Part shown: positions 4,397 to 48,644 of the stretch, piece after piece
How the letters are laid out: each line of letters starts with the position of its first letter
Numbering within the stretch: the stretch's first letter is position 1
From: a virus
Direction: 5' to 3' (one strand)
DNA: 64,000 nucleotides
Virus record (IMG/VR): IMGVR_UViG_3300033145_003080
Coordinates: 32,001 to 96,000 of that record
Translations under genes and position numbers: made by a program
Notes under the pieces: generated by a model
Seen by the model: the letters and a program-made list of their open reading frames with translations, nothing else
Databases searched by the model: none
Told to the model about the DNA's origin: nothing

Positions 4397-5289
4397 TCCA
4401 CCTTATATGTTTTTGATACAATCTCAGATAATTCCGGACCTTTCCAGTATGGCAATATCCATATTCTTTTTCTAAATGCACGTCCCTTACCGTATGCCTG
4501 CCTTGTCCAGTGACCTCTTACTGTAAACCGTTTCTCTATTTTTCTTCCCGTTCCACTATTCAGTATTGACAAGTAACGTTTCGGTGGTTTAAGTAAAATA
4601 TACTGACTCTTTACCGTTCTCTTCTGACCTTTTATTTTATATTTAGAATGACCAACTGATTCAGTATCTTCTTTTTTTCTTCCAGGCTCGTTGATATACA
4701 TTATTGCATTGAAAAAGATATTAATAGATCGCTGAGCCTCCGGTATCGTAACTACACCCCTATACTGGTTAGGCTTTTTTGATTTTTCACATGCCGATTC
4801 AATCGATTCGTTATTGAGGAGATTAACCCACATGTGATCAAGACCAAATCCATCAAGACCAGGAGATAGGCCCGAAATGGATACATCCCAGGCAACATCG
4901 TTTTTAATCTCCCCATTCCTTGTTACAAGAAGTGTCTCATTATGAGTTATAGCATTACTATTTATAAATAATAAAGCGTGCACATCAGCATTATCATTTT
5001 CACGTATATTAACTTGAAATAGAGGTTTCTCACCTTCGATAAGAAATGTATCGAACGGATAGTGAAATTCTCCAGGTGTGATATCCATTGGGACATCTGT
5101 CAATGCAAATGCGTCAATTAGCTCTTTTGAAAGACGAAATGTTTTTGCACCTAATCCTAACCATAACTGTAATTTTGTATACAGCGCAGTAAAGTCATAT
5201 GTTACATCTTCAACGGCCTGGCTTGATGGAGTATACTTCATTGAATTGATAAGCTCTTTTGTTTCCTCCATTCTTTTAAATATATTCAC
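4393..5289 (-). CDS. phage hypothetical protein with C-terminal VRGHW motif (paralog B)
   Basis: RFTVRGHWTRQAYG...WILPYWKGPELSEI; GTG start after AGGAGG. Confidence 0.8.
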   Translation of the reverse strand: MNIFKRMEETKELINSMKYTPSSQAVEDVTYDFTALYTKLQLWLGLGAKTFRLSKELIDAFALTDVPMDITPGEFHYPFDTFLIEGEKPLFQVNIRENDNADVHALLFINSNAITHNETLLVTRNGEIKNDVAWDVSISGLSPGLDGFGLDHMWVNLLNNESIESACEKSKKPNQYRGVVTIPEAQRSINIFFNAIMYINEPGRKKEDTESVGHSKYKIKGQKRTVKSQYILLKPPKRYLSILNSGTGRKIEKRFTVRGHWTRQAYGKGRAFRKRIWILPYWKGPELSEIVSKTYKVE

Positions 5290-6601: not shown

Positions 6602-7711
6602 TTAAGCATAAGCTAAAGTGTGTAACCCCACACTTAATATATTTTTTGCGGCATTGAGATCTCTATCAATACTTAATCCACATTTATAACACTCATATTG
6701 CCTAGTAGACAGTTTCATAACTTGTCTATTTCCACAATTAGAACAATCTTGAGTAGTGTAGGCTGGGTTTACCTTAATCACTGTTCGTCCGGCACTTTCA
6801 GCCTTGACAAACAATATATTAAGAAATAGACCCCACGCCGCATCGTTAATTGATTTTGATAATTTTGGCTTTTTACCTTTAATTACCATATTTTTTATAT
6901 TAAGATCTTCAACACATATTACATTATATTTATTTATTATATTTCGAGACAATTTGTGACAAAAATCTTTCCTTTGGCTCCCTACCTTTTCATACCGCAG
7001 TGCAACTGATTTTTTATTTTTTGATGTATTGTTTTTTGAAAAACGCCTTTGTATCTTAATTATTTTTTTTTCTTCTTCTTTAAAAAATCGAGGATTATTA
7101 ATCCTTTCACCGTTAGATAATACGGCAAATGTTTTTAACCCAACATCTATACCAATTTTATTATTAATTTTATGTAATTTGTTTATAGGGATATTGTTAC
7201 ATACAATCGAAACAAACCATTTTCCAGTTGGGGTTCTTTTAATAGTACATGTTTTAGGACTACCAAACATCTCTCTATGTTTTATTATTTTAATTAATCC
7301 TATTTTTGCAAGATTTATATGTGTGCTACCAACATTAAATGGTGATCCACTTTCTGGGCATTGAGGATAAGTAAAAGAATCATACCACCCAGTACCTTTA
7401 AACCTTGGGTGTCCTGGCTTTTCGCCTGACTTACATCTTCTAAAAAATGATTTAAAAGAAAGATCTACTCTAATAACAACATTTTGTAATACTTGTGAAT
7501 AAATACCTTTAATCGTTTGTCTATTTTTTTTAATTGATTTTAGACTATTCATTTGACTAAAACATGATATAGATTCTTTTTTATCTTTCCAAATACATAT
7601 TCTTTCAGACAATAAATGATTGTACAACCATCGACACTCTTCCAATATATTATTGAGGAAACGTTTTTGTTTGTTTGATGGGTATATTCTATATTTATAT
7701 GTTTTAAGCAT
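6602..7711 (-). CDS. tnpB: IS200/IS605-family RNA-guided endonuclease TnpB, no tnpA
   Basis: N-terminal HTH (KTYKYRIYP), RuvC-I GIDVG, RuvC-II VEDL, Zn finger (CSNCG..CYKCG), RuvC-III DRDLNAAKNI; all catalytic residues present; TTGCAA-17-TATATT promoter just upstream of ATG 7711. Confidence 0.95.
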   Translation of the reverse strand: MLKTYKYRIYPSNKQKRFLNNILEECRWLYNHLLSERICIWKDKKESISCFSQMNSLKSIKKNRQTIKGIYSQVLQNVVIRVDLSFKSFFRRCKSGEKPGHPRFKGTGWYDSFTYPQCPESGSPFNVGSTHINLAKIGLIKIIKHREMFGSPKTCTIKRTPTGKWFVSIVCNNIPINKLHKINNKIGIDVGLKTFAVLSNGERINNPRFFKEEEKKIIKIQRRFSKNNTSKNKKSVALRYEKVGSQRKDFCHKLSRNIINKYNVICVEDLNIKNMVIKGKKPKLSKSINDAAWGLFLNILFVKAESAGRTVIKVNPAYTTQDCSNCGNRQVMKLSTRQYECYKCGLSIDRDLNAAKNILSVGLHTLAYA

Positions 7712-7757
7712 ATTATTAATATAGCATAAAATAATAAATATTGCAAAGTTATTAGCT

Positions 7758-7795
7758 AAAAAAAAGAGTTGAACCTGTACAGCGTTCAACTCTTT
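7758..7795. terminator. intrinsic terminator
   Basis: AAAGAGTTGAAC/GTTCAACTCTTT hairpin with A/T tracts. Confidence 0.7.
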
Positions 7796-24078: not shown

Positions 24079-24930
24079 TTATTTACAAACTATATCGAAA
24101 AACGCAGAATCAAGACGCTCATAGTCATTATTTGTTAAATTATGAACATTCAAAGTTTCAGCAAATTCTTTATACGCATCGAGATATTTTTGACAAAAAT
24201 CATCAAGGGCATGGATATGGGGACCTTTGCCGAGCTCTTCGCCATTCTTTTTCCGAAGAAGCAAACTAGCAACGGCTTTACTCACATCATTAAAACCACC
24301 CGAAGGCAACATTTCAGCAAATTTAATTAACCTATCGAATTCCATTGGAGGAACACTGGTATTTCTCATAATCCATTCACATACATAAAGAGGCCGGAGG
24401 ACGTACAGATATTTTTTAACTATCACATCACCCTCAACATTTATGATATATTGAGTAAAGTTTTTCCTTGCCATGTGTTCGTAGTGATAGATGCCCGCTT
24501 TCTTCTTAAAAAAATCAACTGCTAATCGTTTGACGGCAGAGATAACAAAGGGGCGTTCCATGTATACAATAGGAGAATAAAGCCATTCTGCCAAGGCTGG
24601 ATTTCCTTTTGATATCAGCTCCATTACTTTAGAAATATCAAATCCGACAAAATCAAGATCTTCCCTCTCGAGACTGCGAATAAAACTACTCGTTGCAATA
24701 TCGCCTTTATTCCGATCGATAACTTCACGACGTGGTTTTACTGTAAAATAAGCACCTGGCCTGCGTACGTAAATGAACCGGATATCATTATCACTATCTT
24801 CAGATGCAAAGCCCCAAGCTTTACTACCAGATTCGCAGGCGTAGATAATTTTGAAATTCTCTAAAATTTCGATTTCTTGTAATACTTCAAGAATTCGTTC
24901 TTTTTTAAATACTTCAATCGATCGGCTCAA
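24079..24930 (-). CDS. DNA-polymerase-beta-superfamily nucleotidyltransferase (RlaP/YcgL, PF10127-like)
   Basis: YACESGSKAWGFASEDSDNDIRFIYV, KGNP..EWLYSPIVY, KKYLYVLRP; TTG start after GGAGG. Confidence 0.9.
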   Translation of the reverse strand: MSRSIEVFKKERILEVLQEIEILENFKIIYACESGSKAWGFASEDSDNDIRFIYVRRPGAYFTVKPRREVIDRNKGDIATSSFIRSLEREDLDFVGFDISKVMELISKGNPALAEWLYSPIVYMERPFVISAVKRLAVDFFKKKAGIYHYEHMARKNFTQYIINVEGDVIVKKYLYVLRPLYVCEWIMRNTSVPPMEFDRLIKFAEMLPSGGFNDVSKAVASLLLRKKNGEELGKGPHIHALDDFCQKYLDAYKEFAETLNVHNLTNNDYERLDSAFFDIVCK

Positions 24931-24960
24931 TTGTACCTCCTTTATAAATAAAAAAAAAGA

Positions 24961-25058
24961 GTGAGTGGGACGTTCCAAAGATCGAACAGACGAAGAAGCG
25001 GGTAGCCATTATCGCTGTTCGAAAGGGAAACCCTCCCGGAATTCCCACGCCCACTCAC
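24961..25058 (-). ncRNA. unclassified ~98-nt structured RNA
   Basis: GTGAGTGGG/CCCACTCAC closing stem, TCGAACAG/CTGTTCGA inner stem, GGG-TTT-CCC side hairpin, 3' U-tract. Confidence 0.6.
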
Positions 25059-25102
25059 CCAGTTAATTGGAATGCCTGGTAAATTTAAACACTAGATATT
25101 AA

Positions 25103-25762
25103 TTAATCATTTCTTTTTAACCACCGCTTTACAGTTGTGGGGCTAACACCATATTTGTCACCAGTTTTTTTATATCCAAAACTCCCAACACTTCTAATTA
25201 ATTTTTCTTTATCAATATTTTTTATTATACGCCTTTCTTTACTCTCACATTTAGTACACCGTGTGGATTCTTGTAAAATTTTTTTGCCACATTCACATCT
25301 TTTCTTTGGTAATTTTTTACACTTAATATTTCTTCCTGTAAAGGTTGGTAATTGACTATCACAATTTGGACAAACTAACCTTAAGTTTTTTTGTCTATTA
25401 TCATTTCTGACACCGTTTATGTGATCCATTATAAGTACAAGCGGTTTATTTTTCCATTTTTTTATTCCACAAATGTAACATTTATATTTTAATAGCCCTA
25501 AATTAATCAATCTTTTTTTTAGTCTTTTTCCTTTATATGTTGAATTTTTTACCATTATTTTATTTAAAGACATCGGGCTGGATCTACCACCATATCTCCG
25601 ACCTAAAAAATGGGGCCAAATTATCTTAAGATAGTTTATTCTTTTTTTTACAGAACAGGGGTTAGCATGTGGATTTAGACCCAACTCTCTCATTACAGCG
25701 GAGGTGGTAACATTGTTTTTAACAGCTTTTCTTAATTGTTCATCTGTCCAAGTTCTTTTCAT
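25103..25762 (-). CDS. HNH endonuclease inside the tRNA/ncRNA cluster
   Basis: CYICG..DHINGVRNDNRQKNLRLVCPNCDSQ; own TTGACT-17-TATAAT promoter 5 nt before the ATG. Confidence 0.9.
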   Translation of the reverse strand: MKRTWTDEQLRKAVKNNVTTSAVMRELGLNPHANPCSVKKRINYLKIIWPHFLGRRYGGRSSPMSLNKIMVKNSTYKGKRLKKRLINLGLLKYKCYICGIKKWKNKPLVLIMDHINGVRNDNRQKNLRLVCPNCDSQLPTFTGRNIKCKKLPKKRCECGKKILQESTRCTKCESKERRIIKNIDKEKLIRSVGSFGYKKTGDKYGVSPTTVKRWLKRND

Positions 25763-25823
25763 ATCTAATTATAATTAATGGCGAAGCAAAAGTCAAACAA
25801 GCCAACGCTCTACCATTAAATTC

Positions 25824-25897
25824 CCGCCCGTAAGAGAATCGAACTCTTTCAATTAAGGAATTTAGAGTTCCTCGCCTTCCCATTTGGCTAACGGGCG
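25824..25897 (-). tRNA. amber suppressor tRNA, anticodon CUA
   Basis: Acceptor CGCCCGT/ACGGGCG plus G73, D arm GCC-AAATGGGAA-GGC, anticodon arm AGGAA-CT[CTA]AA-TTCCT, T arm AAGAG-TTCGATT-CTCTT; CCA not encoded. Confidence 0.88.
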
Positions 25898-25929
25898 TTT
25901 TATAAGGACAATGTCGGCCCCATTATTAC

Positions 25930-26012
25930 GCATGAGGTAGGACTGATTACACAACACTCTCCGAAGAGAATATTGCCGGCATCCTTCCGGGTAGCCACAG
26001 CCTGCCTCATGC
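25930..26012 (-). ncRNA. unclassified 83-nt three-way-junction RNA
   Basis: GCATGAGGCAGG/CCTACCTCATGC stem, CCGG/CCGG hairpin, CAATATTCTC-TTCG-GAGAGTGTTG hairpin (cUUCGg tetraloop). Confidence 0.65.
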
Positions 26013-26020
26013 TAAGAAAA

Positions 26021-26116
26021 GTGGGAGTGATGTGGATTCGAACCACTGGCACCGGCACATACAGCATTTGAGCTGATCCTGTGTAAGGGGTTGAACACTC
26101 GTTCTATCACTCTCAC
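26021..26116 (-). ncRNA. tRNA-like RNA 3 (long acceptor, 4-bp T stem, no canonical anticodon arm)
   Basis: GTGAGAGTGAT/ATCACTCCCAC stem, GTGG-TTCGAAT-CCAC T arm, GAAC-GAGT-GTTC hairpin. Confidence 0.6.
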
Positions 26117-26124
26117 CTTTTTTT

Positions 26125-26210
26125 TGGTGGCAGGAATAGGATTTGAACCTACCTGGCGAATTTCAGGAGCCGGCGGTTAACATGGGTCTACATAGTAGCC
26201 ACTTACTGCC
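26125..26210 (-). ncRNA. tRNA-like RNA 2 (acceptor, T arm and CCA; no canonical anticodon arm)
   Basis: GGCAGTA/TCCTGCC-A-CCA, GTAGG-TTCAAAT-CCTAT. Confidence 0.6.
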
Positions 26211-26234
26211 AACGTTGGACTCCTTACACATATA

Positions 26235-26308
26235 TGGTGGCAGGGGTAGGATTTGAACCTACGCAAACCCGTGAAACCGGGCATGTCTTTGCGCTGCATC
26301 ACCCCGCC
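26235..26308 (-). tRNA. aberrant tRNA (tRNA-like RNA 1) with a shortened anticodon arm containing UCA
   Basis: GGCGGGG/CCCTGCC-A-CCA, GTAGG-TTCAAAT-CCTAC, anticodon arm CCCG-GTTTCA-CGGG (6-nt loop). Confidence 0.6.
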
Positions 26309-26329
26309 GTAAATATTGAACTACTCTCC

Positions 26330-26641
26330 TTAAGCCAATGGTAGCTTACTGAATATTTTTCCATCGTCAATACATGCGATGGCAGTTAATTGATTATCTA
26401 TATCAGGCTCATTGAATCCGACGAATTGTTTTTCGCGGCGTCCGAGCTCTTCCTACCAGTACTCCAGTGCTGCGAGATGAGGAACCCCGAGACATATCAG
26501 GGTTTCATTGTTCCATTCCCGGTAAAGAGCGATATCACCTCTCAAAGAGTACTCTGCAAGCGCGTGGTTGCCCTGGACGAAGTTATACTTCGGCCCAAGA
26601 TCCTTACGCAGCAACAGGTATAGTTTCTTCGATTTTGACAT
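26330..26641 (-). CDS. peptidyl-tRNA hydrolase 2 (Pth2)-like protein with an in-frame TAG at codon 63 (26453-26455)
   Basis: KLYLLLRKDL..VQGNHA..W..ETLICL..LEYW*EELGRR..FNEPDIDNQLTAIA..FSKLPLA; family motifs lie on both sides of the TAG. Confidence 0.8.
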
Positions 26642-26930
26642 AGGTGTAATCCTGAATGATCTTTTTAACATGAAGCATATTTGCTTTATTTCCTTCACGA
26701 ACTTTCCGTTCACACTGTTCGTATGTTTTTCCACGAAGCATACAGTAAGCAAGATGCCGATGTCGAATTGCGAATTTAGATGTATGGATCTTAGACTGCA
26801 GATGTCCTGCAGGTTTCCGATCTTTCTGAGTAACCTTCGTGTCCTGTTTTAAAACCCGAAGCGCATTAGCTTCGAGTATTAACTCTTCCTTAAACTTCCT
26901 TGTTAAACATCTCTGTTCTATTGGCAACAT
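26604..26930 (-). CDS. conserved phage protein (RHRHLAYCMLRGKTYEQCE motif), function unknown
   Basis: ORF with AAAGGAG RBS; overlaps the Pth2-like start. Confidence 0.75.
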   Translation of the reverse strand: MLPIEQRCLTRKFKEELILEANALRVLKQDTKVTQKDRKPAGHLQSKIHTSKFAIRHRHLAYCMLRGKTYEQCERKVREGNKANMLHVKKIIQDYTYVKIEETIPVAA

Positions 26931-26995
26931 TGTTATACTCCTTTAAAAAATTAAATAAAATACACTGAATTGCATTATACTAAAGAGTATAACGG
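26931..26995 (-). promoter_or_regulatory. anti-SD/SD translational attenuator
   Basis: GTTATACTCTTTA (26993-26981) is complementary to TAAAGGAGTATAAC (26945-26932), which covers the RBS. Confidence 0.7.
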
Positions 26996-26997
26996 CG

Positions 26998-27066
26998 TTA
27001 GGGCGGTTTGCGTTTACGGGGATAAAGCTACGGTGGGTGTTGAGTAGTAATCTATAATGGTAACAT
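26998..27066 (-). CDS. leader peptide with two in-frame amber codons: MLPL*ITTQHPP*LYPRKRKPP-TAA
   Basis: AAGGAG RBS at 27082-27077; TAG at 27052-27054 and 27028-27030; Pro-Pro before the second TAG and the final TAA. Confidence 0.65.
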
Positions 27067-27194
27067 ATAATTTTTGCTCCTTGCTAATAATATACGTTTT
27101 GGTGAATGAAATTATTTAATTTTTTATAATATTTTAAAAAAGGTAGATAGCTCTGCACGCTCAAGGGCAATTGGGTTCTGCCACTGCACACGAA

Positions 27195-28351: not shown

Positions 28352-28954
28352 TTACCAATCGAATAAAGATAAATCCTCATACTCCGGACCATCCCTGTCT
28401 ATTTTGAGATACTGACACCCATTCTTCTTGGCAAGCTTAATAAGATGCTTAAATGCCTGGGAATATCCTTTATAATCGGGAAGGGCTAATTTCGGATCAA
28501 TCCAAACAACCCAGCCGTATTCAAATTTATACACTATCAATTTACGTATATGGTGTTCATCAATATTATCATTTGACCACTCCCAATCAACACCTTCTGA
28601 ATCCATTTTGCTGATATGGGATGTTGATACAATAAGGTATTTCTGTATCTCATATTGCGGGCCAGGATCTTTTTTGGGTTCTTTTGTGATAAGATCCTTT
28701 GCTTCTTTAACACGTTTTGTAACTTTACCAGTTCCTGCACACCAACCACACTTGTCTTTAAACCCATCCCGACAACCGCAAGGCACAAGAGAGGCGATAC
28801 ATGGACCAACTGAATAGGCGCCACCACTGCTATGTTCAAGTTTCCCTTGCCACAAAATGGAGGTCATAGCCATCACATTACCATAACCATACTCGTCGCA
28901 AATAGCTTTTATTTTTTGAGTTCCTTGTTTAGTATATTGTGGCATGGGACCCAT
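28352..28954 (-). CDS. hypothetical protein with C-terminal DUF5983-like domain
   Basis: STSHIS..YGW..LIKLAKKNGCQYLKIDRDG. Confidence 0.65.
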   Translation of the reverse strand: MGPMPQYTKQGTQKIKAICDEYGYGNVMAMTSILWQGKLEHSSGGAYSVGPCIASLVPCGCRDGFKDKCGWCAGTGKVTKRVKEAKDLITKEPKKDPGPQYEIQKYLIVSTSHISKMDSEGVDWEWSNDNIDEHHIRKLIVYKFEYGWVVWIDPKLALPDYKGYSQAFKHLIKLAKKNGCQYLKIDRDGPEYEDLSLFDW

Positions 28955-48243: not shown

Positions 48244-48644
48244 TGGTGGAGGTGAGGGGAGTCGAACCCCTGTCCACAATGCCTTCTTTTTGAACCTCTA
48301 CAATGCTTAGTCATGATTTAATCTCACTGCTATCAGCTTCCACAGACAGAATCAGACAACAGCCAGCTCCTTAATTTAACCTGCTGGTTGAAGCACCACA
48401 ACAGGCGAGGATTCTAAGGCTACCCAGTGATTCCGAATCCACTCCTCACTGAGTTTGTCATCTTTTTATTAGATGACGGCTATGTCCTGCCGGGCATTTG
48501 CATAGCAAAGTGCACCAAAAGCAAGACAGAAATCGACATTAGATTTGCCAATTAGAGTTATGACCGATATTTAACGAGGCCAACGATCATCCTCGGCATG
48601 CAGTTCAAACGTCCGTTCATCATGTCGAAAACCAATACACCCCC
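48244..48644 (-). ncRNA. ssrA: tmRNA (transfer-messenger RNA)
   Basis: 5' GGGGGTGTATTGGTTTTCGAC, 3' GGACAGGGGTTCGACTCCCCTCACCTCCACCA, G3:U70 pair, internal tag ORF 48549-48469. Confidence 0.93.

What the first reader, a model, noticed from the sequence alone, without database searches (positions are those of the whole stretch)
24079..27082. Candidate new system: operon for translation rescue gated by amber readthrough, with its own CUA tRNA
Seen, in transcription order on the minus strand: a leader ORF with two in-frame TAGs; an anti-SD; an unknown protein; a Pth2-like gene with an internal TAG; three tRNA-like RNAs; an 83-nt RNA; a tRNA with CUA anticodon; an HNH gene; a 98-nt RNA; an RlaP-family nucleotidyltransferase. 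Three internal amber codons and an amber-decoding tRNA fall within about 1.25 kb, while the other large genes in the window are intact under code 11 and several end in TAG. Established: Pth2 hydrolyses peptidyl-tRNA, and the PF10127 family is associated with RNA repair. Inference: this is local, conditional recoding used as a switch. When RF1 is limiting or inactivated, or the suppressor accumulates, the phage turns on peptidyl-tRNA recycling or ribosome rescue, possibly as counter-defence against host attacks on translation. It could also be an early stage of TAG reassignment.
Basis: partly seen in the sequence, partly recalled or inferred. Interest (0 to 1): 0.93.

Follow-up and report, generated by a model that had tools for sequence, protein, structure and literature searches.

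The report
Stop-codon-gated phage operon with own tRNA
A large phage that otherwise uses the normal genetic code carries a tRNA that reads the UAG stop codon, and beside it a small operon (tiny leader, unknown protein, tRNA-hydrolase-like enzyme) that can be fully translated only if UAG is read through. Dozens of distant phages keep the same layout, so it looks like a natural and apparently undescribed gene switch driven by stop-codon suppression.

Summary
On the minus strand lie a 22-codon leader with in-frame TAGs at codons 5 and 13 ending KRKPP-TAA, an anti-Shine-Dalgarno segment, a 108-aa protein ("X"), a Pth2-fold gene with TAG at codon 63, and tRNA(CUA).

The 149-kb genome is otherwise standard code: about 90% coding, and TAG ends 21 of 162 genes.

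Three close relatives keep both leader TAGs with synonymous changes after them. Two share the Pth2 TAG; the third has CAG there.

A profile scan found 50 distant phage loci. Forty-six carry tRNA(CUA), often 1-50 nt after the Pth2-like gene. About 40 have a leader of the type M-x-TAG-(I/V)-x-x-P-P-stop. X is a large unannotated family, fused to Pth2-like in seven loci. Nine or more independent in-frame TAGs occur in Pth2-like genes.

Best reading: an arrest-peptide attenuator whose input is amber suppression by the operon's own tRNA. What X/Pth2-like do is unknown; feedback on the suppressor or clean-up of its by-products are both possible.

HNH, RlaP and the extra RNAs are not core parts.

This scan found the same module earlier in at least 11 other genomes. 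I found no published description.

The parts
27077..27082 (-). Shine-Dalgarno (AAGGAG) of the leader ORF
   Evidence: Sequence. Invariant in the window, L004, L002 and L091.
26998..27066 (-). Leader ORF of 22 sense/amber codons plus TAA: M-L-P-L-TAG-ITTQHPP-TAG-LYPRKRKPP-TAA. The TAGs lie at 27052-27054 and 27028-27030.
   Evidence: Frame, both TAGs and the KRKPP-TAA end are conserved in four phages. Changes after the TAGs are synonymous (CCA/CCG, CGC/AGA, AAA/AAG). It is the only such mini-ORF in the genome.
26981..26993 (-). Anti-Shine-Dalgarno segment, starting 4 nt after the leader stop
   Evidence: Pairs with 26932-26945 in the MFE structure (-15 kcal/mol duplex, z = -4.6 against shuffles). 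L002 has a different anti-SD (GTAATCTC) matching its different RBS (GAGATTAC). Across 29 loci mean z = -2.2, Wilcoxon p = 5e-8.
26932..26945 (-). Ribosome-binding region of gene X, sequestered by the anti-SD
   Evidence: RNAfold P(SD unpaired) = 0.03 when free or with a ribosome at either TAG. It rises when a ribosome is placed on the leader stop.
26604..26930 (-). Gene X: 108-aa protein of a large unannotated family (motif [FY]RHxHIAYCxLRGRxYEQIE)
   Evidence: Alignment A5 of 28 loci. No Pfam or PDB sequence hit. 2151 representatives at E<=1e-3 among 1.84 billion proteins. Fused with Pth2-like in L043, L046-L048 and L050-L052. AF2 pLDDT 91: long helical hairpin.
26330..26641 (-). Pth2-fold gene (103 codons) with in-frame TAG at codon 63 (26453-26455). 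It overlaps X by 38 nt.
   Evidence: phrog_3668 match spans the TAG. The same TAG occurs in L004 and L091 with a conserved downstream frame; L002 has CAG there. AF2 and Foldseek give a Pth2 fold. Profile hit to PDB 2zv3; PF01981 in 6 of 11 relatives.
26235..26308 (-). tRNA-like RNA with encoded CCA and an aberrant 6-nt anticodon loop
   Evidence: ARAGORN and Rfam tRNA 34.8 bits. A similar element in L002 at 4871-4950. Not conserved across the wider set; role unknown.
26126..26210 (-). Second tRNA-like element (shares the T arm and 3' end with the first). Weak.
   Evidence: Sequence. Fold z = -1.2. No Rfam hit.
26023..26114 (-). Structured RNA with a T-arm-like hairpin, alignable with elements in L002 and L004
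   Evidence: Rfam tRNA-Sec only 19 bits. Fold z = -2.5. Alignment A6.
25930..26012 (-). Strongly structured RNA of about 83 nt, function unknown
   Evidence: -39.8 kcal/mol, z = -4.3, 0 of 200 shuffles as stable.
25824..25897 (-). Amber suppressor tRNA(CUA). It is the only canonical tRNA gene in the 149-kb record.
   Evidence: ARAGORN; Rfam RF00005 54.3 bits. tRNA(CUA) accompanies the Pth2-like gene in 46 of 50 distant loci.
25103..25762 (-). HNH homing-endonuclease-like gene. A likely mobile insertion, not part of the module.
   Evidence: phrog_10822 4.8e-41. Best promoter-like site of the region lies just upstream. Absent from L002 and L004.
24079..24978 (-). RlaP-family nucleotidyltransferase. 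A neighbour, not part of the core.
   Evidence: PF10127 226.6 bits. Also downstream in L002. Not recurrent in the 50 loci.

Best explanation
This is a self-contained phage module: leader peptide, then protein X, then Pth2-like hydrolase, then tRNA(CUA). It works as a translational attenuator whose input is amber suppression.

Proposed steps (none is shown directly; all rest on comparative or structural evidence):
1. Ribosomes start on the leader and meet UAG at codons 5 and 13.
2. If RF1 wins, they leave. The anti-SD just after the leader stop stays paired with the ribosome-binding site of X, and the operon is silent.
3. If the operon's own tRNA(CUA) decodes both UAGs, the ribosome reaches K-R-K-P-P-UAA and dwells there. 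This is a Pro-Pro end like RAPP/RGPP arrest peptides, with slow termination after Pro.
4. The paused ribosome's footprint covers the anti-SD and frees the RBS of X.
5. X is translated. The overlapping Pth2-like gene is translated by coupling, but needs a third read-through at codon 63. Output therefore rises steeply with suppression efficiency.
6. X and Pth2-like act together, since they are one polypeptide in some phages, probably as an ester hydrolase on a tRNA-linked species tied to amber suppression.

Inferred with less support: the pair either damps the suppressor (negative feedback that holds read-through at a set level in a genome that still ends 13% of its genes with TAG), or it clears peptidyl-tRNA and stalled complexes that suppression creates.
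For: Leader is translated through TAG:
- Four phages keep ATG, both TAGs and the PP-TAA end in frame, with synonymous changes after the TAGs.
- In 11 distant loci with 8-codon leaders, the two Pro codons are invariant at positions 1-2 and free at position 3 (entropy 1.35 and 1.54). TAG at codon 3 is invariant.
- Such leaders precede about 40 of 47 distant loci: 45 TAG mini-ORFs against 8 (TGA) and 14 (TAA) in controls.
- They also appear in 3 of 3 loci sampled independently from the X family, and once per genome.

Anti-SD:
- MFE sequestration in the window, L091 and L002. L002 shows a compensating change of both partners.
- Across 29 loci mean z = -2.2, 16 with z < -1.64, Wilcoxon p = 5e-8.

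Link to the tRNA:
- tRNA(CUA) is on the same strand in 46 of 50 loci and within 150 nt after the Pth2-like stop in 24 or more. It is the only tRNA in 16 loci.
- It is the only canonical tRNA in this genome.
- In TAG-recoded Lak-A1 the neighbouring tRNA is UUA and the leader-like ORF carries an in-frame TAA.

Gate inside the enzyme:
- In-frame TAG occurs at nine or more different events in Pth2-like genes, with one TGA and no TAA.
- Four such genomes are about 90% coding in code 11 and gain nothing from TAG as sense.

X and Pth2-like work together: overlapping genes in most loci and fusion in seven.

Pth2 fold.

RAPP/RGPP arrest motifs are established stallers (PMC10951233, PMC12992588). Several relatives carry exactly RAPP or RGPP.
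Against: - No experiment and no expression data; no RNA run was available.
- In L004 the predicted anti-SD pairing is weak and a local hairpin is preferred.
- RNAalifold on the four close relatives picks the local hairpin GTTATAC/GTATAA(T/C) rather than the long-range helix.
- The window's arrest-like end is RKPP, not the tested RAPP/RGPP.
- A ribosome with the stop codon in the A site would cover only the first 5-6 nt of this phage's 13-nt anti-SD.
- The amino acid carried by the tRNA is unknown; CAG in L002 only hints at Gln.
- The canonical loop lysine of Pth2 does not align, so hydrolase activity and substrate are unproven.
- The direction of the effector (feedback or clean-up) has no direct evidence.
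- Loci in the statistics are not phylogenetically independent.
Confidence: 0.62

Rival explanations
1. The sensed variable is RF1, not the tRNA. The tRNA(CUA) is a constant reference, and the leader reports loss or inhibition of host RF1 (by phage takeover, stress or a defence system). It then switches on X/Pth2-like as a rescue or counter-defence function.
For: - UAG decoding is always a competition between RF1 and the suppressor.
- Pro-Pro before the second TAG would slow RF1 (own knowledge).
- The phage also encodes a tmRNA.
- ArfB-like GGQ proteins, canonical Pth2 and RtcB occur near the module in some loci.
Against: - This is not exclusive of the main model, because the two inputs cannot be separated by sequence.
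- The near-obligate physical linkage with tRNA(CUA), often 1-13 nt after the enzyme gene, suggests the tRNA is more than a passive reference.
- No RF-1 domain protein or known RF1 inhibitor is in this genome.
Confidence: 0.17
2. This is incipient or relaxed TAG reassignment. Once a phage has an amber suppressor, TAG mutations are tolerated, and they persist by linkage in the genes closest to the tRNA. There is no regulatory meaning.
For: - Borges et al. (bioRxiv 10.1101/2021.08.26.457843) propose that suppressor acquisition precedes recoding.
- CAG in L002 against TAG in the window is a single transition.
Against: - TAG is confined to the leader and the Pth2-like gene in four genomes of 140-274 kb.
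- X genes, equally linked to the tRNA, showed no internal TAG in the loci read.
- Leader TAGs are positionally invariant across very divergent phages, with a Pro-Pro end and an anti-SD.
- TAG still terminates 11-20% of genes.
Confidence: 0.08
3. The leader is only a short minigene that truly ends at the first TAG, and the Pth2-like gene is a decaying pseudogene. The conservation downstream reflects promoter or RNA-structure constraints.
For: Short ORFs ending soon after ATG are known sources of peptidyl-tRNA drop-off (lambda bar minigenes, own knowledge). L091 carries an extra in-frame TGA in the Pth2-like gene.
Against: - Codon-periodic conservation after the TAG, with Pro codons free only at the third position.
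- Synonymous changes, including CGC to AGA, after the second TAG.
- Eleven or more in-frame TAGs against one TGA and no TAA or frameshift in about 55 Pth2-like genes.
- The part after the TAG folds as an integral part of a confident single domain.
Confidence: 0.04
4. The TAGs are sequencing or assembly errors.
For: None found.
Against: The same TAGs occur in independent assemblies: IMG/VR (window), Logan SRR26901924 (L004), two JGI metagenomes (L090, L091) and the L002 contig for the leader.
Confidence: 0.01

Closest known systems
Arrest-peptide translational attenuators (SecM-secA, MifM-yidC, ApdA/ApdP/ApcA with RAPP, RGPP peptides of Streptomyces; ermC and cat leaders)
   Same: A short upstream ORF whose ribosome pauses at a Pro-Pro-containing C-terminal motif and thereby opens a sequestered Shine-Dalgarno of the next gene. 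Several relatives carry exactly RAPP or RGPP (PMC10951233, PMC7897499, PMC12992588).
   Different: The input here is not secretion, membrane insertion or an antibiotic. It is whether in-frame UAG codons upstream of the arrest motif are read through by a co-encoded suppressor tRNA. The leaders are much shorter (8-22 codons). The window's motif is RKPP followed directly by a stop.
prfB (RF2) autoregulation through an in-frame UGA (own knowledge)
   Same: An in-frame stop codon early in a translation-factor gene measures termination efficiency at that codon and sets the output of a factor acting on the same process.
   Different: prfB escapes by a +1 frameshift and needs no tRNA of its own. Here the escape is cognate decoding by a dedicated tRNA(CUA), and the gate sits in a separate leader as well as inside the enzyme gene.
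Stop-codon-recoded phages (TAG read as Gln, code 15; crAss-like, Lak) with suppressor tRNAs (Borges et al., bioRxiv 10.1101/2021.08.26.457843; PMC9523058)
   Same: A phage-encoded tRNA(CUA) and genes whose expression depends on it. Those authors proposed recoding as a timing device.
   Different: These genomes are standard code: about 90% coding in code 11, and TAG ends 11-20% of genes. In-frame TAG is confined to one leader and one gene next to the tRNA. Neither the Pth2-like/X pair nor the leader is mentioned in that work.
PTH2 of jumbo phages (Iyer et al. 2021, PMC7824862)
   Same: Pth2-fold proteins in large phages, placed in a context of tRNA repair and ribosome rescue. RlaP is also described there.
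   Different: That overview does not contain the word 'suppressor'. The protein here is a divergent branch, below Pfam detection for the window copy. It is always paired or fused with family X, preceded by the amber leader and followed by tRNA(CUA). Some loci have a canonical Pth2 in addition.
Synthetic amber-suppressor logic gates (supD tRNA plus amber-interrupted T7 RNA polymerase; own knowledge)
   Same: Gene output requires both a transcript with in-frame TAG codons and a suppressor tRNA. Several TAGs sharpen the response.
   Different: Those gates are engineered. This would be a natural counterpart, with an added arrest-peptide and anti-SD stage.

Membership tests
Peptidyl-tRNA hydrolase PTH2 (PF01981) | Pth2 alpha/beta fold | tested here: met
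   AF2 model pLDDT 93.9 as one domain across the TAG. Foldseek top hits are archaeal Pth2 and Bit1 (2zv3, 3erj, 1q7s), E 1.6e-5 to 1e-4, TM 0.76-0.80.
Peptidyl-tRNA hydrolase PTH2 (PF01981) | Sequence match to the Pfam model above its curated cut-off | tested here: not met
   The window protein has no Pfam hit at E<=0.1. Six of 11 relatives match PF01981, best E 7.1e-5. Profile against PDB 2zv3 gives E 0.006.
Peptidyl-tRNA hydrolase PTH2 (PF01981) | Catalytic residues: loop Lys, Asp, Thr of archaeal Pth2 (from memory, a lead only) | tested here: inconclusive
   Q23, H26 (VQGxHA) and D80 (EPD) are conserved. The canonical GK loop aligns with a 2-residue gap.
Peptidyl-tRNA hydrolase PTH2 (PF01981) | Hydrolysis of N-blocked aminoacyl- or peptidyl-tRNA | not testable with these tools
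   Needs an enzyme assay.
RAPP-like ribosome arrest peptides | C-terminal R-A/G-P-P core | tested here: not met
   The window has K-R-K-P-P (Arg at -3, Lys in place of Ala/Gly) and H-P-P before the second TAG. Exact RAPP or RGPP occurs in relatives L009, L016, L028, L015, L017, L018, L030, L033, L035, L038 and L097.
RAPP-like ribosome arrest peptides | Upstream ORF whose stalled ribosome exposes the RBS of the next gene | tested here: met
   Predicted only. Anti-SD/SD helix in the window, L091 and L002; significant complementarity across 29 loci.
RAPP-like ribosome arrest peptides | Demonstrated elongation arrest | not testable with these tools
   Needs toeprinting or in vitro translation.
Stop-codon-recoded phage (code 15) | Many genes with in-frame TAG; low coding density in code 11 that is restored by reading TAG as sense | tested here: not met
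   Coding density 0.903 in code 11 against 0.908 with TAG as sense, no more than with TGA or TAA. TAG with open frames on both sides is not enriched. TAG ends 21 of 162 genes.
tRNA (RF00005), amber suppressor | Cloverleaf above the Rfam gathering score with a 7-nt anticodon loop reading CUA | tested here: met
   54.3 bits against a cut-off of 29; loop C-U-C-U-A-A-A.
tRNA (RF00005), amber suppressor | Aminoacylation and amino-acid identity | tested here: inconclusive
   Features are C1:G72, G73, G10, and no encoded CCA. CAG at the homologous codon in L002 hints at Gln. Similarity to other phage tRNAs is uninformative.
RlaP (PF10127) | Match to the Pfam model above cut-off | tested here: met
   226.6 bits against a cut-off of 23, full length.
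Bacterial Ro60/Y-RNA or Rtc RNA-repair operon (considered for the tRNA-like RNAs next to RlaP) | TROVE (Ro60) or RtcB gene in the genome | tested here: not met
   No PF05731 or PF01139 match in the 149-kb record, which is about 80% complete.

The most novel reading that the evidence does not exclude
The module is a closed-loop controller of the genetic code. The leader measures how well UAG is being read as sense. X/Pth2-like is a tRNA(CUA)-directed hydrolase that strips the suppressor, or its peptidyl form. The operon therefore holds amber read-through at a set point in a cell and a phage that still use UAG as a stop. The stop codon used as the gate co-varies with the anticodon of the tRNA (TAG with CUA here, TAA with UUA in TAG-recoded Lak phage). 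This would be a new class of natural regulatory circuit, and it would explain the 'orphan' suppressor tRNAs of standard-code phages.
Probability: 0.3. Interest if true: 0.95.

Novelty: new variant of a known kind. Interest (0 to 1): 0.86.

Why it matters
Suppressor tRNAs in phages that use the standard code have had no known target. This module gives them one: a conserved leader and an enzyme gene that are locked by the very codon the tRNA reads.

If the model holds, it would be:
- the first natural gene switch whose input is stop-codon suppression, a natural counterpart of synthetic amber logic gates;
- a new input class for arrest-peptide attenuators;
- a pointer to a large unannotated protein family (X, more than 2000 clusters at 50% identity) that works with a divergent Pth2-fold enzyme on some tRNA-linked substrate.

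It also makes a long-standing question testable: how can a phage run partial read-through of a stop codon without wrecking termination of its own and the host's genes? The parts are short and portable (leader, anti-SD, tRNA), so they could also serve as tools.

Tried and rejected
- Genome-wide TAG recoding: rejected.
- Ro60/Y-RNA or Rtc repair operon as an explanation for the tRNA-like RNAs beside RlaP: no TROVE or RtcB in the record. No RF-1-domain protein either.
- DNA search of GenBank phages with the 3.3-kb region: only three short matches, no close relative.
- Protein search of GenBank phages: Stenotrophomonas phages (Moby and others) have a stand-alone Pth2-like gene after dexA, with no leader, X or tRNA. 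RAS14 has the domain at the end of a 261-aa protein. No cultured phage with the full module was found in this search.
- Fold of X: Foldseek PDB found nothing at E<=0.001. VIA-align wide gave only generic helical hairpins (best Z 8.0). The resemblance to the tRNA-binding arm of seryl-tRNA synthetase (6x94, Z 7.0) is no better than unrelated rows. Pfam and PDB sequence searches of X were empty.
- Amino-acid identity of tRNA(CUA) by similarity to 202 other phage tRNAs: no consistent isotype. The CUA tRNAs of the loci are very divergent, with all four discriminator bases.
- Sequencing runs: none was listed, and no RNA holder was listed.
- Promoter and terminator scan: no more sites than in shuffles. 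The only strong promoter-like site lies before HNH.
- RNAalifold on the four close relatives returned the local hairpin, not the long-range anti-SD helix. L004 does not show the long-range helix.
- Pattern scan for the exact leader in IMG/VR found only the L002 contig. The metagenome scan added L090-L092.

Full report
WHERE THE WINDOW LIES. The window is bases 32001-96000 of a 149,037-bp IMG/VR virus record with inverted terminal repeats, estimated about 80% complete, GC 37.6%. PHROG matches to helicases, a topoisomerase-like protein and a transposase show a large phage. ARAGORN finds only three RNA genes in the whole record: tRNA(CUA), one aberrant tRNA-like gene and a tmRNA.

THE OBSERVATION. 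Read on the minus strand, the region contains these elements in order:
- AAGGAG at 27077-27082.
- A mini-ORF starting at 27066 that reads M-L-P-L-TAG-I-T-T-Q-H-P-P-TAG-L-Y-P-R-K-R-K-P-P-TAA.
- Four bases later, GTTATACTCTTTA, complementary (with one bulge) to TAAAGGAGTATAAC, the ribosome-binding region of the next gene.
- A 108-aa ORF at 26604-26930, here called X.
- Overlapping X by 38 nt, a 103-codon frame at 26330-26641 with a TAG at codon 63.
- Several structured RNAs.
- tRNA(CUA) at 25824-25897 (Rfam 54.3 bits).
- An HNH gene, then an RlaP nucleotidyltransferase (PF10127, 226 bits).

Of the 'tRNA-like RNAs', one passes the Rfam tRNA threshold (34.8 bits) but has a 6-nt anticodon loop, and the other two are weak. 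The '83-nt RNA' is very stable (z = -4.3).

THE GENOME USES THE STANDARD CODE.
- ORF lists in code 11 and with TAG as sense differ only trivially, except for the Pth2-like frame.
- Stops with long open frames on both sides are no more common for TAG than for TAA or TGA. The candidates are adjacent genes or non-coding frames.
- A greedy gene set covers 90.3% in code 11 and 90.8% with TAG as sense, the same gain as with TGA or TAA.
- TAG ends 21 of 162 genes.

THE PTH2-LIKE GENE IS REAL AND NEEDS READ-THROUGH.
- The window protein has no Pfam hit, but phrog_3668 ('hydrolase') aligns across the TAG.
- Six of 11 relatives match PF01981. A family profile hits the Pth2 structure 2zv3.
- AlphaFold gives one confident domain (pLDDT 93.9) with the TAG inside a helix. 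Its best PDB matches are archaeal Pth2 and human Bit1 (TM 0.76-0.80).
- The closest full-length relative (L002, 64% identical) has CAG at the TAG position.
- Two closer relatives from independent assemblies (L004 from a Logan run, L091 from a JGI metagenome) have TAG at exactly the same codon. Their downstream 40 codons are conserved in frame, although the residues just after the TAG differ.
- This rules out sequencing error and simple decay. L091 also carries one TGA in place of a Cys codon, which I cannot explain.

THE LEADER IS CONSERVED AS A TRANSLATED FRAME. The window, L004, L002 and L090/L091 all have AAGGAG, ATG-TTA-CCA-(T/A)TA-TAG, four variable codons, CAC-CCN-CCN-TAG, and a tail ending AAR-(CGC/AGA)-AAA-CCG-CCN-TAA. 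The changes after both TAGs are synonymous or conservative, and the reading frame is always kept. L002 keeps the leader TAGs although its Pth2-like gene has none.

THE MODULE IS WIDESPREAD. A profile of the Pth2-like family found 50 loci in IMG/VR, on contigs of 5-470 kb with 30-65% identity.
- tRNA: forty-six loci carry a tRNA(CUA) on the same strand. Two of the four exceptions are cut at the contig end. In at least 24 loci the tRNA starts within 150 nt of the Pth2-like stop, often 1-13 nt after it. In 16 loci it is the only tRNA within 3 kb. The CUA tRNAs themselves are very divergent.
- Leader: about 350-450 nt upstream of the Pth2-like gene, nearly every locus has an SD-preceded mini-ORF of the type M-x-TAG-(I/V)-x-x-P-P-stop. 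Some have a second unit (...P-P-TAG-x-x-R-G-P-P). The count is 45 such ORFs with TAG, against 8 and 14 in TGA and TAA controls.
- Codon pattern: in the 11 loci with an 8-codon leader, ATG, TAG and the first two bases of both Pro codons are invariant, while the third Pro positions are free (entropy 1.35 and 1.54). This is the signature of a peptide translated past the TAG.
- Context: the residue after the first TAG is Ile or Val in 29 of 41 leaders, so TAG is followed by a purine. From my own knowledge, this context favours suppression.
- Uniqueness: in three whole genomes this kind of mini-ORF occurs once, at the module.

THE MIDDLE GENE X.
- The ORF between leader and Pth2-like gene is a conserved family (alignment A5, motif [FY]RHxHIAYCxLRGRxYEQIE).
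- It has no Pfam or PDB sequence relative.
- It usually overlaps the Pth2-like start by 20-37 nt.
- In seven loci it is fused with the Pth2-like domain in one ORF of about 190 residues.
- An exhaustive profile search finds 2151 representative proteins (1008 at E<=1e-10), mostly about 100 aa, some 185-189 aa.
- Three loci drawn from that list independently again show leader, X and Pth2-like. One has RAPP in the leader, an in-frame TAG in the enzyme gene and a tRNA(CUA).
- The model of X is a long helical hairpin with no informative structural match.
- No other gene recurs with the module. HNH and RlaP are local neighbours. Some loci have an ArfB-like GGQ protein, a canonical Pth2 or RtcB nearby.

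IN-FRAME TAGS ARE SPECIFIC TO THE ENZYME GENE.
- Besides the window group, in-frame TAGs lie inside the conserved domain in L013, L014, L021, L022, L034, L035, L038, L042, L096 and L097.
- They sit at several positions, with a cluster in the loop before a conserved Trp.
- No TAA, and only the one TGA in L091, was seen.
- The full contigs of L013, L014 and L022 (224, 140 and 274 kb) are about 90% coding in code 11, gain nothing from TAG as sense, and end 11-20% of genes with TAG.

THE ANTI-SD.
- RNAfold puts the SD of X in a helix with the segment next to the leader stop in the window and L091 (P unpaired 0.03 and 0.00).
- In L002 both partners have changed together (GTAATCTC with GAGATTAC).
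- Placing a ribosome on either TAG leaves the helix intact. Placing it on the leader stop removes it.
- L004 is an exception, and RNAalifold prefers a competing local hairpin.
- Over 29 loci, the duplex between the leader-stop window and the SD window is stronger than for shuffled sequences (mean z = -2.2, 16 of 29 below -1.64, Wilcoxon p = 5e-8). The loci are not all independent.
- In many loci the Pro-Pro codons themselves read CCUCC, a direct anti-SD.

HOW IT MOST LIKELY WORKS. Nothing here is shown experimentally.
- Inferred from conservation: the leader is translated through UAG, ends in a Pro-Pro motif, and sits next to an anti-SD. X and Pth2-like act together, and tRNA(CUA) belongs to the unit.
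- Inferred from established knowledge: RAPP/RGPP-type ends stall ribosomes (PMC10951233, PMC7897499, PMC12992588). A paused ribosome opens downstream structure, as in SecM or ermC.
- The resulting model: the operon is silent unless the tRNA(CUA) outcompetes RF1 at two leader codons. The Pth2-like protein needs a third read-through, so its level rises steeply with suppression.
- What the enzyme pair does is open. I give roughly equal weight to negative feedback on the suppressor and to clearing products of suppression. The sensed variable could equally be RF1.

A COVARIATION LEAD. In the TAG-recoded Lak-A1 phage, the Pth2-like gene is preceded by a tRNA(UUA) and by a mini-ORF, M-K-L-Q-H-W-TAA-V-T-L-S-R-G-S-P..., whose in-frame stop is TAA. 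I checked this one case only.

WHAT IS KNOWN. PTH2 and RlaP in jumbo phages are described (PMC7824862), but that paper never mentions suppressors. The survey of phage recoding does not mention Pth. Four full-text searches found no paper linking Pth2, a leader peptide and a suppressor tRNA in phages. This scan has met the same module in at least 11 other genomes, and follow-up agents reached the same reading.

VERDICT. The switch reading is supported by comparative evidence, while the purpose is open. It is a new variant of leader-peptide attenuation and of phage suppressor-tRNA biology, and of high interest.

Noticed in passing
window 48244-48644 (-): Phage-encoded tmRNA (Rfam 162 bits, full length) with predicted tag peptide ARQDIAVI. 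A second translation-rescue element in a genome whose only canonical tRNA is an amber suppressor.
   Followed up: no
window 25930-26012 (-): Very stable structured RNA of about 83 nt with a UUCG-capped hairpin (-39.8 kcal/mol, z = -4.3), between the tRNA-like elements and tRNA(CUA). No Rfam family.
   Followed up: partly
window 26023-26114 (-); L002 4976-5045; L004 about 2480-2560: An RNA element conserved between the three close relatives (core ...GTCCGGTAAAAGYCCGGTTAAATCGGGGAGTGGTTA... in L002 and L004). In the window it has a T-arm-like hairpin and a long acceptor-like stem. Rfam gives only weak tRNA-Sec and twister-P1 scores.
   Followed up: partly
L091 about 1057-1059: In this close relative the Pth2-like gene has the shared TAG and also a TGA replacing a conserved Cys codon (IAC to IA-TGA). 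It could be a variant, decay or leaky read-through.
   Followed up: no
L004 2597-2671: The CUA tRNA of this relative has an 8-nt anticodon loop (extra A 5' of C-U-C-U-A-A-C). ARAGORN misses it; Infernal scores it at 41.8 bits.
   Followed up: partly
L095 (Prevotella phage Lak-A1, MK250016.1) 1736-2800: In a TAG-recoded phage, the Pth2-like gene is preceded by tRNA(UUA), a leader-like ORF with an in-frame TAA and an X-like gene. The gate codon seems to follow the tRNA anticodon.
   Followed up: partly
L027 2028-2366; L034 3645-4034; L038 33-1070: Near the module, some loci carry an ArfB/ICT1-like GGQ protein, a canonical Pth2 (so two Pth2-fold genes in one locus) or an RtcB ligase.
   Followed up: no
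window 27052-27066 versus 26916-26930 (-): The leader start (ATG TTA CCA TTA TAG) resembles the start of gene X (ATG TTG CCA ATA GAA), as if the leader arose by duplication of the X start. The same holds in L091.
   Followed up: no
window 6602-7789 (-): Transposase gene (phrog_506, 3e-105) inside the phage genome.
   Followed up: no
window 28352-28954 (-): 200-aa protein with a C-terminal DUF5983 domain (PF19419, 1.3e-16), two genes upstream of the module.
   Followed up: no
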